Sequence record: NC_048186.1
Length of the DNA stretch: 64,000 nucleotides
Reading direction: 5' to 3' (one strand)
Origin: Escherichia phage vB_EcoM_KWBSE43-6
Of this stretch, positions 19,607-24,064 are shown in pieces. How positions within the stretch are numbered: the first letter of the stretch is position 1; every line of letters starts with the position of its first letter. The translations under genes were made by a program, and so were the position numbers. A model generated the notes under the pieces. It saw only the letters and a list, made by a program, of their open reading frames with translations. It was not told the origin of the DNA and made no database searches.

Positions 19607-20036
19607 TATAGAAATTGATTAACATATTGTCAGTCCATCCTGACCAGTCGAATACATCAAAATCAGCCACACCTTGGTACATATTGACGATAGCAGGCGA
19701 AAATATGACATCAACCTGATTTTTATCGTTGTCATTCACCTGAACTTTGATCCAGAACAAAGATCGGTCTTCCAGAATATGTGCCAATTTAGGATAACGA
19801 GAGGATATTTCCAATGCCCACACATCTAATATAGAACGAAAATCATCTTCCATTTTATAAATGAATGCCGTGGAAATCGGATGGCCAAGATATGGACTCC
19901 AGGATTTATATTGTGTTACTTCCTGGATGCTGGACACCAATGGTATCACCAATCCCCGCTGATATTGTGCTGACAAAGAAGGGATAGAATTAAGATATGA
20001 CAATATCTCTTCACGCTGAATCTGTGTTAATTTCAT
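19575..20036 (-). CDS. Hypothetical protein
   Basis: 153-aa ORF. Confidence 0.4.
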
Positions 20037-20698
20037 TTTAGTCCCACCTCATAACGATGACGAGTACAGGCCATACAATCGCAGTTCTTTTTCAGAACCG
20101 GATATTCACACCAGGTCATCATCCCGTAAAGAGGACGAAGGGCTTCATAAAACCAGGCTTTCTTCAACCCGATCATGGGGAACAACAATTCAGCCGGGCG
20201 ATTTTGTGGATCAGCCAACATAGCATACCCTTCCATGATCTTATTGAAGGAACGGATATACTGCAGGGCATCATCACCGTTCACATATGCCATGACATAC
20301 GTCTCAGGATAGATAGATGCAAGCTGAGTGCCAAGCAACCATATTGGGGCTTGGGCCAATGCTGAACGGAAAGGGCCAGCTGCTTCTACCTTTAATATAG
20401 GGATTTCATCATTGTCCCAATGTTGTGTTAATTCTGGACGATATTTTTCTGCCCATTGTCTGATCTTTTTCCTAGACCACATTTCACGCCGGGACTTGAA
20501 CGAGTTGTTCTCCAGGTCGCAGTAGATCGTCCGGACATAATATCCGTGAGAAAGCAACCAGAACAGCATGTATGTACTGTCAACACCGCCAGACCAGAAC
20601 AAAGTCACACTCTTATCATTGAAATGCATGGGTAACTTTTGTCCTTCCAACACGTCGCGTACAAATTCTCTGTCATTGAATTCTACATTGATTTCCAT
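20033..20698 (-). CDS. PP-loop ATPase (QueC/ExsB-like N-type ATP pyrophosphatase)
   Basis: SGGVDS PP-loop motif near N-terminus; C-terminal Cys cluster CDCMAC; about 220 aa. Confidence 0.5.
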   Translation of the reverse strand: MEINVEFNDREFVRDVLEGQKLPMHFNDKSVTLFWSGGVDSTYMLFWLLSHGYYVRTIYCDLENNSFKSRREMWSRKKIRQWAEKYRPELTQHWDNDEIPILKVEAAGPFRSALAQAPIWLLGTQLASIYPETYVMAYVNGDDALQYIRSFNKIMEGYAMLADPQNRPAELLFPMIGLKKAWFYEALRPLYGMMTWCEYPVLKKNCDCMACTRHRYEVGLK

Positions 20699-20700
20699 GA

Positions 20701-20943
20701 TTACGCCTTAATCATTCCGAGAGCCTGGGCAATATACCGTTCCGCCCCCTTTAAAGAATCCTTAATGATCTTATAGAATTCTTCCCTGGTCACAATATGA
20801 CTATCAGCCATATACGTGTTGGTCGTAATGCCGTGAGAATCACGGGCATAATGATGGTATAATTCTACACCACCAACATTGAATGTGACAGTTCTGGTAC
20901 GGGATATGCTCATGATTTGTCTCGGGTTAGATAGATATATCAC
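20701..20943 (-). CDS. Hypothetical protein
   Basis: 80-aa ORF. Confidence 0.35.
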   Translation of the reverse strand: MIYLSNPRQIMSISRTRTVTFNVGGVELYHHYARDSHGITTNTYMADSHIVTREEFYKIIKDSLKGAERYIAQALGMIKA

Positions 20944-20961
20944 AATAATACGTTATTTCTT

Positions 20962-20987
20962 ATATAGAAAAGCCCCTTACGGGGCTT
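20962..20987 (-). terminator. Rho-independent terminator-like hairpin
   Basis: AAGCCCC-GTAA-GGGGCTT then TTTCTAT in minus sense; overlaps stop of the 20977..21327 ORF. Confidence 0.4.
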
Positions 20988-21327
20988 CATCTTTATCAGA
21001 TTTATAAACTTCCCATCGGCCTATTCCACGCCATTCACCAAGATCGTTCCAGGTGCGAGTCCCTACCCAGCCACCAACTTCATAATAATGACATATACAT
21101 GCCCAGAAGTCTTTGAAAGTTACTTTCCGAGTTGGTTTCACACATGCGATTTGCCAGCGGGTTAAGCTGATTGCCTGGAACAATGGATGGATATAATTGC
21201 TATAGATCAAATATATCGCGATGAGCACAATGCATCCCACAAATATCATACCGATAGCAGTGAAAATAAACATTATTCCACCTTTAATCCCATCAGATCT
21301 TCCATGGTTTTCTGGATGCGGAGCCAA
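20977..21327 (-). CDS. Small membrane protein
   Basis: Hydrophobic helix GGIMFIFTAIGMIFVGCIVLIAIYLIY. Confidence 0.4.
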   Translation of the reverse strand: MAPHPENHGRSDGIKGGIMFIFTAIGMIFVGCIVLIAIYLIYSNYIHPLFQAISLTRWQIACVKPTRKVTFKDFWACICHYYEVGGWVGTRTWNDLGEWRGIGRWEVYKSDKDEAP

Positions 21328-21959
21328 TCCAGCGCAGCATCATAACGAGGATCATGGTATACCATGCCTTCCAGTTCCCATGCCTTGATGCCGGCATAGC
21401 GATCCATCTGGCCAACGCCTTTCAGCCAGCTGACGATATCAAATGTGTGGTGATAATCCCACGGCTCATTGGAGTATTGCCCGCATGTCACTTCAATGAT
21501 ATGCTGGGCTTTACGCAGATCGAATAGATTTCGATCACACCAGTCAACCGACCTGGGATCAACCCCCAGGCGATGACACCCTTTGCGAATTTCGTCGGCC
21601 AGCTGATAGATGGAGATATCATCTTCCTTTGGATACAGGCTGACTTCACGGGCGGCATCACATGGATTATATTTCCCGTTCCCCAGCCACCAGTCTACAG
21701 TCACTTTCTCTTTGACACGACCGAGGTCGATTTGCTCTTTGACATTCAATTTAATGAATGTAGTACGTTCTTCGACTAGTTGCTGGAGAGTATAACGTTT
21801 GGTCAAATCAGCTACTGTCTGCGCCCAGGATAACATAACAGCGTCATCCCAGCGGCCCAGGGTTTCACTATCGGCGACCGCCAAAATATTTGATTTATAC
21901 ATTGTTACCCTCCACCCGGATAATTTCTTCTTCAGAATCGACGACGTTGATGTCATCAT
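21273..21959 (-). CDS. DEDDh 3'-5' exonuclease (T4 DexA-like)
   Basis: ILAVADSETLG (Exo I-like) and YHDPRYDA (Exo III-like H-x4-D); 228 aa, close to T4 DexA size. Confidence 0.5.
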   Translation of the reverse strand: MMTSTSSILKKKLSGWRVTMYKSNILAVADSETLGRWDDAVMLSWAQTVADLTKRYTLQQLVEERTTFIKLNVKEQIDLGRVKEKVTVDWWLGNGKYNPCDAAREVSLYPKEDDISIYQLADEIRKGCHRLGVDPRSVDWCDRNLFDLRKAQHIIEVTCGQYSNEPWDYHHTFDIVSWLKGVGQMDRYAGIKAWELEGMVYHDPRYDAALDWLRIQKTMEDLMGLKVE

Positions 21960-22500
21960 CCAGCGCGTTCAGATTTTCCATGTCTTCCGCAAACTTGTCT
22001 ACTTCCATGATGTAGAACACGGGGACAACCCGGCGGCGAGTGTCTTCGTACAGGGTTTCAGCCAGCGCTTCTACCTGGCGGACAACGTCATAAAGATTAA
22101 GACCGCCGATACCGCAGCCGATAGCTGGCAGGCCGATATAGACCGTTTCAGAATCCTTCGCTTCCATAATCTCGTGAAGTTGTTCAAACATCACTTGTAC
22201 AGAACTGATAACGGAAGGCATACGAGCATTTGGGCCTGTATAGAATTGAGTATACAGATTGAAGCCCCAAACACCCGTGTCACGGTCAAAGGCATAAGAC
22301 ATGCCACCGAGACGCTGCTCCGGCCCGCGCTCATCGTTCTGGTCTGCGCGCCAGACGTCAGGAAACCCCAGCCGAACGAAATTGGCGATACCCGCGCCCA
22401 TCACCGACCAGCAATTGGCGCCATGGGCGAATCCGTTAATAAGATTGAAACTTTTCGCGGCTTCCAACAAATTCCCACCACGAATGATATACGTTGTCAT
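21895..22500 (-). CDS. Macro domain protein (ADP-ribose binding/processing)
   Basis: Macro-like motifs FAHGANCWSVMGAGIA and IGLPAIGCGIGGLNLYD; acidic C-terminal tail. Confidence 0.5.
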   Translation of the reverse strand: MTTYIIRGGNLLEAAKSFNLINGFAHGANCWSVMGAGIANFVRLGFPDVWRADQNDERGPEQRLGGMSYAFDRDTGVWGFNLYTQFYTGPNARMPSVISSVQVMFEQLHEIMEAKDSETVYIGLPAIGCGIGGLNLYDVVRQVEALAETLYEDTRRRVVPVFYIMEVDKFAEDMENLNALDDDINVVDSEEEIIRVEGNNV

Positions 22501-22730
22501 ACAATTCTTCTCCAGGTAATGTTGATGTCATCAATAAATTCAAGGCAAAAAACGCCGCCATCTCCTTCACTATTGTTGATGGACATGATAGATGTTCTCT
22601 CGTCGGCGGCGATAATATTAACCCCAAACCCTTTGGACATCAAACGGAAAGCGATTTCTTTTACAATCCGATTGAGATACGCAGGGGTGGTTGCCGGGTC
22701 AAAATATATTTCGAACTCAGGCATCACCAA
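22497..22730 (-). CDS. Hypothetical protein
   Basis: 77-aa ORF. Confidence 0.3.
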   Translation of the reverse strand: MVMPEFEIYFDPATTPAYLNRIVKEIAFRLMSKGFGVNIIAADERTSIMSINNSEGDGGVFCLEFIDDINITWRRIV

Positions 22731-22966: not shown

Positions 22967-23009
22967 TTACCAGTTATGGGATTAGGCGGTAATAATACCG
23001 CCTTTTTAT

Positions 23010-23414
23010 TCAATAAAGGTCTTCGGAGAAAAGCTGATTGAAAGGAGTATTCTTCAGACGAACTTGGTTGATTTGCCCGGCTTCTTTAGCGACGATCGCT
23101 GCCTCTTCACGAGTTAAGAAATTGCCTTGGTTGTCGATGAAACCCTGTTCACGGCTATGGGTTGTAGTAATGACCCCAGCTTCTTTTAGAATTCTTAACT
23201 GGGAATTCATGAATCGGCTGTGGTGACGATCAGCAACCACGATCACATCACCATATTTGTTGGCTGCGGCCACGACACGGCGCTGCCATTCCCCTTCCTT
23301 GGGTAGGTCACGAGCGTACAGGGCAACCATTGTACCATCCGGGGTTCCTTTGACCTCAGAGAACAATCGTCCAGTGCCACCAGGGAGTTCACGGAAATAA
23401 CCAAGTAGTTTCAT
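23010..23414 (-). CDS. Hypothetical protein
   Basis: 134-aa ORF. Confidence 0.4.
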   Translation of the reverse strand: MKLLGYFRELPGGTGRLFSEVKGTPDGTMVALYARDLPKEGEWQRRVVAAANKYGDVIVVADRHHSRFMNSQLRILKEAGVITTTHSREQGFIDNQGNFLTREEAAIVAKEAGQINQVRLKNTPFNQLFSEDLY

Positions 23415-24022: not shown

Positions 24023-24064
24023 ATTAAAGCCCTCGCAGGTGGCGGGGGCTTTTGGCCCCCTGTA

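What the first reader, a model, noticed from the sequence alone, without database searches (positions are those of the whole stretch)
21895..22500. Macro-domain protein with acidic tail
Motifs FAHGANCWSVMGAGIA and IGLPAIGCGIGGL match the diphosphate-binding loops of macro domains, which bind or hydrolyse ADP-ribose adducts. In a phage this could counter host ADP-ribosylating defences or regulate the phage's own ART. It sits directly beside the DexA-like exonuclease gene.
Basis: partly seen in the sequence, partly recalled or inferred. Interest (0 to 1): 0.55.

Follow-up and report, generated by a model that had tools for sequence, protein, structure and literature searches.

The report
Phage macrodomain, likely anti-DarT enzyme
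This Klebsiella phage gene encodes a macrodomain enzyme of the same family as phage T4's Tk.4/AdfM, which most likely strips ADP-ribose off phage DNA to defeat the bacterial DarTG2 defence; it is a real but already-recognised kind of gene.

Summary

The window is an Ackermannviridae (Taipeivirus) Klebsiella phage. Near-identical genomes already annotate this gene as "macro domain-containing protein" or, for legacy reasons, "phosphatase".

The protein falls in PHROG 335 with T4 Tk.4 and PhiKZ gp104. Both are named AdfM and both have been shown to counter DarTG2. It shares T4 Tk.4's invariant His26/Asn29/Gln85 pattern. Gln85 sits where DarG and TARG1 have their catalytic lysine, as in Streptomyces SCO6735, a Gln-dependent enzyme that cleaves thymidine-linked ADP-ribose.

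The "acidic tail" is acidic (net -11 over 37 aa), but it is predicted to be a folded helix-strand-helix add-on specific to Ackermannviridae, not a disordered tail. No phage ADP-ribosyltransferase is annotated, so "regulating its own ART" has no support.

Verdict: a new member of a known kind, of modest interest. The function of the acidic extension is the only open point.

The parts
21895..22500 (-). Macrodomain gene (201 aa plus stop); Tk.4/AdfM-type standalone macrodomain
22009..22500 (-). Macro core, aa 1-164 (six-stranded sheet with helices; last core strand VPVFYI)
   Evidence: Secondary structure of the model; aligned spans to DarG, TARG1 and Poa1p
22384..22431 (-). Loop 1 motif FAHGANCWSVMGAGIA (aa 24-39), with family-invariant His26, Asn29 and Cys30 and the MGAGIA phosphate-binding loop
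   Evidence: Invariant columns in A1 (A1 numbering is protein numbering minus 1). It aligns to DarG VNTVNCVGVMGKGIA and Poa1p IHSCNCNGSWGGGIA. Asn29 corresponds to PhiKZ AdfM N23, whose mutation reduces activity (PMC13309987).
22246..22260 (-). Invariant NLYTQ (aa 81-85); Gln85 occupies the position of the catalytic Lys of DarG (K80) and TARG1 (K84)
   Evidence: Profile alignments; invariant in 38 of 38 family members; also present in T4 Tk.4; YTQ is kept in the bacterial relatives
22099..22137 (-). Loop 2 motif IGLPAIGCGIGGL (aa 122-134), the second diphosphate-binding loop; Gly132 aligns with TARG1 Asp125, where DarG also has Gly
21898..22008 (-). Acidic C-terminal extension (aa 165-201; 13 D/E against 2 K/R), predicted helix-strand-helix; present only in Ackermannviridae-type members
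22497..22730 (-). Upstream 77-aa DUF7234 gene, translationally coupled (ATGA overlap at 22497-22500); the pairing with the macro gene is conserved in Ackermannviridae
   Evidence: Pfam DUF7234 at 1.5e-33; the overlap; conserved adjacency
21273..21902 (-). Downstream dexA-like exonuclease gene (209 aa from the ATG at 21902), overlapping the macro stop by 8 nt
   Evidence: PHROG 255 exonuclease at 5e-53; annotation; orthologs 74-84% identical in distant relatives

Best explanation
The gene encodes a standalone macrodomain ADP-ribosyl hydrolase of the phage Tk.4/AdfM type. It is co-expressed with DNA-metabolism genes (topoisomerase II, DexA).

It most likely binds ADP-ribose that a host DarT2-type toxin has attached to thymidines in single-stranded phage DNA. 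It would then hydrolyse the ribose-base bond, restoring replicable DNA and so neutralising the DarTG2 abortive-infection defence.

Catalysis probably does not use the lysine of DarG or TARG1. It more likely uses the Gln85-centred, water-mediated mechanism described for Streptomyces SCO6735, with invariant His26 and Asn29 positioning the distal ribose.

Shown here: the macro fold, the class (DarG/TARG1/Poa1p-like), family membership with T4 Tk.4, the conserved active-site residues and the operon anatomy. Inferred: the substrate (dT-ADPr on ssDNA), the hydrolytic activity and the anti-DarTG2 role.
For: - Sequence: the family profile matches DarG at 9e-14 and TARG1 at 4e-10. DarG is the only PADLOC model hit, for this protein and for T4 Tk.4 alike.
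- Family: this protein shares PHROG 335 with Tequatrovirus and Krischvirus Tk.4 and with PhiKZ gp104. It is 33-37% identical to Tk.4. T4 Tk.4 matches only this ORF in the window and in a close relative's whole genome.
- Function of relatives: a T4 tk.4 knockout is sensitised to DarTG2 (bioRxiv 10.1101/2025.11.20.689424). PhiKZ gp104 removes DarT2's ADP-ribose from TNTC ssDNA and rescues cells from DarT2 toxicity (PMC13309987).
- Active site: His26, Asn29, Gln85 and both Gly loops are invariant in 38 members and are present in T4 Tk.4. SCO6735 has Gln85 at the catalytic-lysine position. Its Q85A mutant is dead, and the enzyme cleaves dT-ADPr and protects against DarT (PMC9411070, PMC9967889).
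- Evolution: the macro protein is 46-48% identical in relatives whose adjacent DexA is 74-84% identical. That fits an arms-race gene.
- Host: DarT2 homologs occur on plasmids, including 2 from Klebsiella.
Against: - No experiment exists for this protein or for any Ackermannviridae member. Identity to the tested T4 and PhiKZ proteins is only 26-37%.
- T4 AdfM's activity is inferred from genetics, not biochemistry.
- The catalytic lysine that is essential in DarG is absent. The correspondence to SCO6735 Gln85 is transitive, because the direct 5e3b alignment was not printed.
- The protein is very acidic (net -16, pI 4.4), whereas DNA-acting DarG, TARG1 and SCO6735 have electropositive clefts (PMC9411070). 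However, PhiKZ gp104 (-6) and Tk.4 (-5) are also acidic.
- Cellular relatives of this subfamily are standalone and not next to DarT.
- Iyer et al. (PMC9503650) argue that phage macrodomains mainly target small ADP-ribose derivatives.
- DarTG2 has not been shown to restrict this phage's hosts.
Confidence: 0.6

Rival explanations
1. It hydrolyses or sequesters small soluble ADP-ribose derivatives rather than DNA adducts. Candidates are ADP-ribose-1''-phosphate (a Poa1p-like 'A1pp phosphatase'), O-acetyl-ADP-ribose, or ADP-ribose-derived immune signals or toxins such as those of Thoeris/TIR systems.
For: - The family's invariant His26 aligns with Poa1p His23, a residue the depositors mutated (H23A entry 6lfs).
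- The legacy annotation of T4 Tk.4 is 'A1pp phosphatase motif'.
- Iyer et al. propose that phage macrodomains mainly counter low-molecular-weight ADP-ribose derivatives (PMC9503650).
- An acidic surface suits a small-molecule substrate better than DNA.
Against: - The only phenotype reported for the T4 ortholog is loss of resistance to DarTG2; tk.4 was the single significant hit in that screen.
- Poa1p Ser30 and Phe152 are not conserved here (Val33 and Gly132).
Confidence: 0.2
2. It reverses ADP-ribosylation of proteins or RNA by host defence ARTs, for example CmdTAC-type mRNA ADP-ribosylation, or protein-targeting toxins.
For: TARG1 and SCO6735, which belong to the same class, also de-modify proteins (PMC9967889, PMC9411070). 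TARG1 is the top Foldseek hit. RNA-targeting ART defences against T-even phages exist (PMC11618068, listed).
Against: There is no evidence that any member of this phage family acts on protein or RNA. DarG-type macrodomains are reported as DNA-specific (PMC13309987; PMC9967889). TARG1's Asp125 is replaced by Gly, as in DarG.
Confidence: 0.12
3. It regulates or reverses modifications made by the phage's own ADP-ribosyltransferase.
For: T4-like phages encode Alt, ModA and ModB as well as Tk.4 (established knowledge). Some phages do carry ART-macro pairs (PMC9503650).
Against: No ART is annotated among the 249 features of phi1_175010, the close relative whose macro protein is 100% identical. No DarT-like sequence is detectable in it. 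The one gene labelled 'anti-CRISPR' in that genome is a Phage_gp49_66 family protein, not an AcrIF11-type ART. Many hypothetical proteins remain unscreened.
Confidence: 0.03
4. It is a non-catalytic ADP-ribose reader or sponge, or it inhibits DarT only by binding it.
For: The catalytic lysine is absent. Catalytically dead DarG, TARG1 and SCO6735 still inhibit DarT by interaction (PMC9411070). The acidic extension could act as a DNA mimic (DarG's C-terminal domain works this way, PMC11481870).
Against: His26, Asn29 and Gln85 are strictly invariant across 25-100% identity, and Gln at this site is catalytically essential in SCO6735. Family members lacking the extension, including T4 Tk.4, still protect.
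Confidence: 0.05

Closest known systems
T4 Tk.4 = AdfM (anti-DarT factor macrodomain), Tequatrovirus (bioRxiv 10.1101/2025.11.20.689424)
   Same: Both are in PHROG 335. Both carry the invariant motifs HG(A/C)NC, MG(A/S)G, NLYTQ and PxIG(C/A)GIG. They are 33-37% identical over about 120 aa with reciprocal single hits. Both are standalone phage macrodomains in a nucleotide/DNA-metabolism gene cluster, and both hit only DarG in PADLOC.
   Different: Tk.4 is 155 aa and lacks the roughly 40-aa acidic C-terminal extension. Its genomic neighbours differ (vs and tk rather than DUF7234 and dexA). Tk.4 carries a net charge of -5, against -16 here. The phage family (Straboviridae) and host are also different.
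PhiKZ gp104 = AdfM (chimallivirus DarG2-like antitoxin; PMC13309987)
   Same: Same PHROG 335 and the same fold class. The conserved Asn (N23 in gp104, Asn29 here) is shared. gp104 is also a standalone phage macrodomain.
   Different: Identity is only 26%. gp104 keeps the DarG-type FPTK lysine and has Ile where this family has the invariant His. Its second-best PHROG is 30914, whereas this protein and Tk.4 have 15329. It is imported into a phage nucleus, which Ackermannviridae do not have.
Streptomyces coelicolor SCO6735 (PDB 5e3b; PMC9411070)
   Same: ALC1/TARG1/DarG-class macrodomain with Gln instead of the catalytic Lys. His and Asn also occur in the first loop (H24 and N27 there, His26 and Asn29 here). 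It is standalone, cleaves dT-ADPr and neutralises DarT. The family-profile hit is 2.4e-7.
   Different: It is a cellular, DNA-damage-regulated protein. It has a longer basic mobile loop (Lys89, Lys94) and an electropositive cleft. It has no acidic extension. The residue-level alignment was obtained only by transitivity.
Bacterial DarG (DarTG2 antitoxin; PDB 5m3i, 5m31, 7omu)
   Different: This protein has no DarT-binding C-terminal domain and no adjacent DarT. Lys80 is replaced by Gln and Trp83 is not conserved. It scores 40.9 bits against the 250-bit equivalog cut-off.
Yeast Poa1p (ADP-ribose-1''-phosphate phosphatase; PDB 6lfq)
   Different: Poa1p has Ser at the Gln85 position. Its Ser30 and Phe152 are not conserved here. 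Its second loop (INSGIFG) differs from GCGIGG.

Membership tests
Macro domain superfamily | Three-layer alpha/beta/alpha macro fold | tested here: met
Macro domain superfamily | Two glycine-rich ADP-ribose/diphosphate-binding loops | tested here: met
   MGAGIA (aa 34-39) and GCGIGG (aa 128-133) align to the loops of DarG, TARG1 and Poa1p and are invariant or nearly so in the family.
Macro domain superfamily | Score above Pfam PF01661 gathering threshold | tested here: not met
   15.1 bits against a cut-off of 22, and only aa 112-141 matched. This divergent subfamily is poorly covered by the Pfam model; relatives are listed as 'faint'.
ALC1-like / TARG1 / DarG class | Closest sequence and structure neighbours belong to this class | tested here: met
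ALC1-like / TARG1 / DarG class | Catalytic lysine (DarG K80 / TARG1 K84) | tested here: not met
   Gln85 aligns with the first Lys of DarG PTKKHW and of TARG1 ITKK. The Gln is invariant in the subfamily.
Bacterial DarG antitoxin (NCBIfam NF048014) | Full-length equivalog score, including the C-terminal DarT-binding domain | tested here: not met
   40.9 bits against a cut-off of 250. Only model positions 5-137 of 338 matched, and likewise in PADLOC.
Bacterial DarG antitoxin (NCBIfam NF048014) | Encoded next to a DarT (DUF4433) toxin | tested here: not met
   The neighbours are DUF7234 and dexA. No DarT-like sequence was found in the related whole genome or next to the cellular relatives.
Phage AdfM, T4 Tk.4 type | Same protein family and reciprocal unique match to Tk.4 | tested here: met
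   PHROG 335 for both. T4 Tk.4 hits only this ORF (7.5e-15). One place per record in T4-like genomes.
Phage AdfM, T4 Tk.4 type | Shared active-site constellation His / Asn / Gln plus the Gly loops | tested here: met
Phage AdfM, T4 Tk.4 type | Protects the phage against DarTG2 / removes dT-ADPr | not testable with these tools
   This needs a plaque assay of a deletion mutant on a DarTG2-positive host and an in vitro de-ADP-ribosylation assay.
SCO6735-type Gln-dependent dT-ADPr hydrolase | Gln at the catalytic-Lys position, with His and Asn in loop 1 | tested here: met
   Gln85 aligns with DarG K80, and PMC9411070 states that SCO6735 Q85 is equivalent to K80 and K84. The SCO6735 mutants H24Y and N27S show the same H-x-x-N spacing as His26 and Asn29. 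The direct alignment to 5e3b was not obtained.
SCO6735-type Gln-dependent dT-ADPr hydrolase | Extended basic mobile loop (Lys89/Lys94) and electropositive DNA-binding cleft | tested here: inconclusive
   The loop after Gln85 (FYTGPNARMPS) has one Arg. The whole protein carries a net charge of -16.
Poa1p-type Appr-1''-p phosphatase | Conservation of the residues probed in Poa1p (His23, Ser30, Phe152) | tested here: inconclusive
   His23 aligns with His26 and is conserved. Ser30 aligns with Val33 (Thr in most members). Phe152 aligns with Gly132 and is not conserved.

The most novel reading that the evidence does not exclude
The Ackermannviridae-specific folded acidic C-terminal extension (aa 165-201, net -11) may be a miniature functional analogue of DarG's C-terminal domain. 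It would act as a negatively charged ssDNA mimic that docks onto DarT, or onto another DNA-binding defence or replication protein. This 201-aa protein would then be a compact two-pronged antitoxin that both erases the DNA adduct and blocks the toxin, possibly working with the conserved, translationally coupled DUF7234 partner.
Probability: 0.1. Interest if true: 0.55.

Novelty: new member of a known kind. Interest (0 to 1): 0.3.

Why it matters
It extends the recently defined phage anti-DarTG2 macrodomain family (AdfM) to Ackermannviridae, a group widely used in Klebsiella, Salmonella and E. coli phage therapy and biocontrol. The presence or absence of this gene could therefore influence host range on DarTG2-carrying strains.

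It also shows that the propagated annotation 'phosphatase' is a legacy label.

The T4-type AdfM lineage shares a Gln-for-Lys active site with SCO6735. That predicts a lysine-independent mechanism for a very widespread phage enzyme, which has homologs in about 2,350 of 50,697 phage records.

Tried and rejected
- Pfam Macro alone: sub-threshold. I did not take this as a refutation, because the profile and structure evidence is strong.
- Single-sequence phmmer alignment: it placed FYTGPNAR opposite DarG FPTKKHWR. I rejected this in favour of the family-profile alignment, which puts the invariant NLYTQ opposite NFPTK.
- Direct alignment to SCO6735 (5e3b): an N-terminal sub-profile lost that hit, so the correspondence rests on transitivity.
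- Phage-encoded ART partner: none is annotated in the whole related genome. The gene labelled 'anti-CRISPR' is a gp49/66-family protein, not an ART.
- DarT next to cellular homologs: only 9 loci were found across about 185,000 species genomes, and none had a DarT neighbour. This was BLASTP with a single DarT2 query, so sensitivity was limited.
- Link between the upstream 77-aa DUF7234 protein and ICP1 AdfB (also 77 aa): DUF7234 has no Vibrio or ICP1 matches and is found almost only in Ackermannviridae-type records.
- Similarity of the C-terminal extension to DarG's C-terminal domain: the DarG HMMs align only to the macro part.
- Promoter and terminator consensus scan: counts were not above the shuffled expectation, so no timing claim is made.

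Full report
**Observation**

The minus-strand ORF 21895..22500 encodes a 201-aa protein. FAHGANCWSVMGAGIA is aa 24-39 and IGLPAIGCGIGGL is aa 122-134.

The start ATG overlaps the stop of an upstream 77-aa gene (ATGA at 22497-22500). The stop overlaps by 8 nt the ATG at 21902 of a DexA-like exonuclease gene, which has a GGAGGG Shine-Dalgarno sequence upstream.

**What genome this is**

The surrounding 3 kb is 98-99% identical to Klebsiella phages of the Ackermannviridae genus Taipeivirus (cp21, phi1_175010, XDRKpn-1, 0507-KN2-1).

The identical protein in phi1_175010 is annotated 'phosphatase'. The XDRKpn-1 copy is annotated 'macro domain-containing protein'. UniProt names the Erwinia phiEa2809 and Serratia phiMAM1 orthologs 'Macro domain-containing protein'. 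The identification as a macrodomain is therefore already in public annotation.

**Is it a macrodomain?**

Pfam's Macro model scores only 15.1 bits, against a cut-off of 22. Everything else is decisive:
- NCBIfam DarG at 1.5e-10 and PADLOC DarG at 2e-10, both over the macrodomain part only.
- phmmer hits to the solved DarG macrodomains 5m3i and 5m31 and to the Thermosipho DarTG fusion 7omu.
- A 38-member family profile that hits M. tuberculosis DarG at 9e-14, TARG1 at 4e-10, T. aquaticus DarG at 5e-10, SCO6735 at 2.4e-7 and Poa1p at 3e-7.
- An AlphaFold2 model with mean pLDDT 94.6 and pTM 0.91.
- Foldseek top hits to TARG1, Poa1p and DarG with probability 1.00.

**Family and function of relatives**

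tblastn finds homologs in 2,350 of 50,697 phage records, including the Tk.4 proteins of T4-like phages.

This protein, Tequatrovirus Tk.4, Krischvirus Tk.4 and PhiKZ gp104 all have PHROG 335 as their best family. RefSeq labels T4 Tk.4 'phosphatase; contains A1pp phosphatase motif', which explains the PHROG label.

Two recent studies give this family a function:
- A transposon screen found tk.4 to be the single T4 gene needed on a DarTG2 host. A clean knockout was sensitised, and the gene was named adfM (bioRxiv 10.1101/2025.11.20.689424).
- PhiKZ gp104, also named AdfM, removes DarT2's ADP-ribose from a TNTC oligonucleotide and rescues cells from DarT2. Its N23A mutation reduces activity (PMC13309987).

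This protein is 33-37% identical to Tk.4 over about 120 residues and 26% identical to gp104. T4 Tk.4 matches no other ORF in the window or in the whole related genome.

**Active site**

Alignment A1 and the model lack Met1, so full-protein numbering is A1 numbering plus 1.

Invariant in all 38 aligned members are His26, Gly27, Ala28, Asn29, Cys30, Met34, Gly37, Asp53, Asn81, Leu82, Tyr83, Gln85, Pro125, Gly128 and Gly133.

In the profile alignments, NLYTQ lies opposite DarG INFPTK and TARG1 YLITK. Gln85 therefore replaces the catalytic lysine (DarG K80, TARG1 K84), whose mutation inactivates those enzymes (PMC9967889). The earlier single-sequence alignment had mis-registered this segment.

T4's own Tk.4 has the same AHGCNC...NLYTQ...PRIGAGIG constellation. 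PhiKZ gp104 instead keeps FPTK and lacks the His. The two proteins named 'AdfM' therefore represent two lineages, and this protein belongs to the T4 type.

A Gln at this site is not a dead end. Streptomyces SCO6735 has Gln85 at the equivalent position, and its Q85A mutant is completely inactive. The enzyme cleaves thymidine-linked ADP-ribose by a proposed water-mediated mechanism and protects against DarT. Its mutant panel (H24Y, N27S) shows the same His-x-x-Asn spacing (PMC9411070).

The invariant His also aligns with Poa1p His23 (hhalign probability 96%). I could not print a direct alignment to SCO6735, so that correspondence is transitive.

**The 'acidic tail'**

Residues 165-201 have 13 D/E against 2 K/R. 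The whole protein carries a net charge of -16, with pI 4.4.

The model predicts this segment as helix (model residues 166-179), strand (183-186) and helix (189-199), with block pLDDT of 82-95. The Ackermannviridae orthologs phiEa2809 and phiMAM1 superpose over the full length, with TM 0.81-0.84. It is therefore a folded extension, not a disordered tail.

The extension is present, with a conserved hydrophobic pattern and a net charge of -6 to -16, in the close clade. It is shorter and less acidic in the Erwinia and Serratia clade, and absent from Tk.4, gp104 and the cellular relatives.

It has no detectable similarity to DarG's C-terminal domain. [quoted passage not shown] An analogous role for the extension is the most novel reading that the evidence does not exclude, but nothing tested here supports it directly.

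**Context**

The order of genes is:
- topoisomerase II large subunit
- topoisomerase II second subunit (DNA_topoisoIV-type)
- a Y16D-family protein
- DUF7234
- the macro gene
- dexA
- a 98-100-aa protein

This order is conserved in a 48%-identical metagenomic relative and in Erwinia phage Bue1, where one gene is inserted.

DexA is 74-84% identical in those phages, whereas the macro protein is 46-48% identical. That faster divergence fits a gene under arms-race pressure. In T4, tk.4 is not next to dexA, so the adjacency is specific to this lineage and is not evidence of a functional link.

No ADP-ribosyltransferase is annotated among the 249 features of phi1_175010, and no DarT-like sequence is present. 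The 'regulates its own ART' idea therefore has no support.

Cellular genomes contain very few members of this subfamily: 9 loci across about 185,000 species genomes. All are standalone proteins of about 150 aa with HGANC and N[AG]YTQ motifs, and none has a DarT neighbour. DarT2 homologs occur on 80 plasmids, including two from Klebsiella.

The promoter and terminator consensus scan was not above chance.

**Verdict**

However, the gene belongs to a family whose fold is already annotated and whose function has recently been established in T4 and PhiKZ.

The best-supported mechanism is removal of DarT2-type ADP-ribose from thymidines in phage ssDNA by a Gln-type (SCO6735-like) active site. I put confidence in this at about 0.6. 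The rivals are small-molecule ADP-ribose derivative processing (0.2), protein or RNA de-ADP-ribosylation (0.12), a non-catalytic binder (0.05) and regulation of the phage's own ART (0.03).

The features not previously described, as far as the searched literature shows, are the Ackermannviridae-specific folded acidic extension and the conserved coupling to DUF7234.

Novelty: new member of a known kind. Interest: 0.3.

Noticed in passing
window 20033-20698 (-), within an inserted segment at about 20052-20702: A QueC-like PP-loop ATPase gene (221 aa; PHROG 1550 at 3e-68; Pfam QueC at 22 bits). It lies in a roughly 650-bp segment that is absent from the whole genome of the 98%-identical phage phi1_175010 and from the XDRKpn-1 locus. 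phi1_175010 instead carries a different 385-bp segment a little upstream. This looks like a strain-variable accessory gene, possibly related to 7-deazaguanine DNA modification.
   Followed up: partly
window 22497-22730 (-): A 77-aa DUF7234 protein is translationally coupled (ATGA overlap) to the macro gene. The pairing is conserved across Ackermannviridae genera (for example Salmonella phage maane and a metagenomic relative). The protein diverges fast (29-33% identity between genera) and is found almost only in Ackermannviridae-type records. It shows no similarity to ICP1 AdfB, although both are 77 aa. Its function is unknown.
   Followed up: partly
window 21273-21959 (-): GenBank records disagree on the dexA start: 228 aa from the ATG at 21959 (PQ066595.1) against 209 aa from the ATG at 21902 (PP792980.1). 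The 209-aa start has a GGAGGG Shine-Dalgarno sequence and matches the 209/210-aa orthologs. The longer call would overlap the macro gene by 65 nt.
   Followed up: yes
window 22984-23003, 20970-20987, 24044-24060: GC-rich hairpins sit in the short intergenic gaps that bracket the five-gene block containing the macro gene. The one at 20970-20987 overlaps the stop codon of the last gene and is followed by TTTCT on the minus strand, so it looks like a terminator. Overall the terminator scan was not above chance.
   Followed up: partly
family-wide (PHROG 335; T4 NC_000866 60922-61389): The widely propagated annotation 'phosphatase' for this family traces to the T4 Tk.4 note 'contains A1pp phosphatase motif'. 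No phosphatase activity has been shown, and current evidence points to ADP-ribosyl glycohydrolase activity against DarT2 adducts.
   Followed up: yes
family-wide: T4 Tk.4 (L017 4423-4890) compared with PhiKZ gp104: Two proteins independently named 'AdfM' have different active-site constellations. T4 Tk.4 and this protein have His...Asn...Gln (SCO6735-like). PhiKZ gp104 has Ile...Asn...Lys (DarG-like). They may therefore use different catalytic mechanisms.
   Followed up: partly
window 23010-23414 (-): This 134-aa protein (PHROG 839) has orthologs in relatives that carry Pfam T4_Y16D hits. One GenBank record annotates it 'tRNA processing enzyme'. The local Pfam scan gave no hit at E<=0.01.
   Followed up: no
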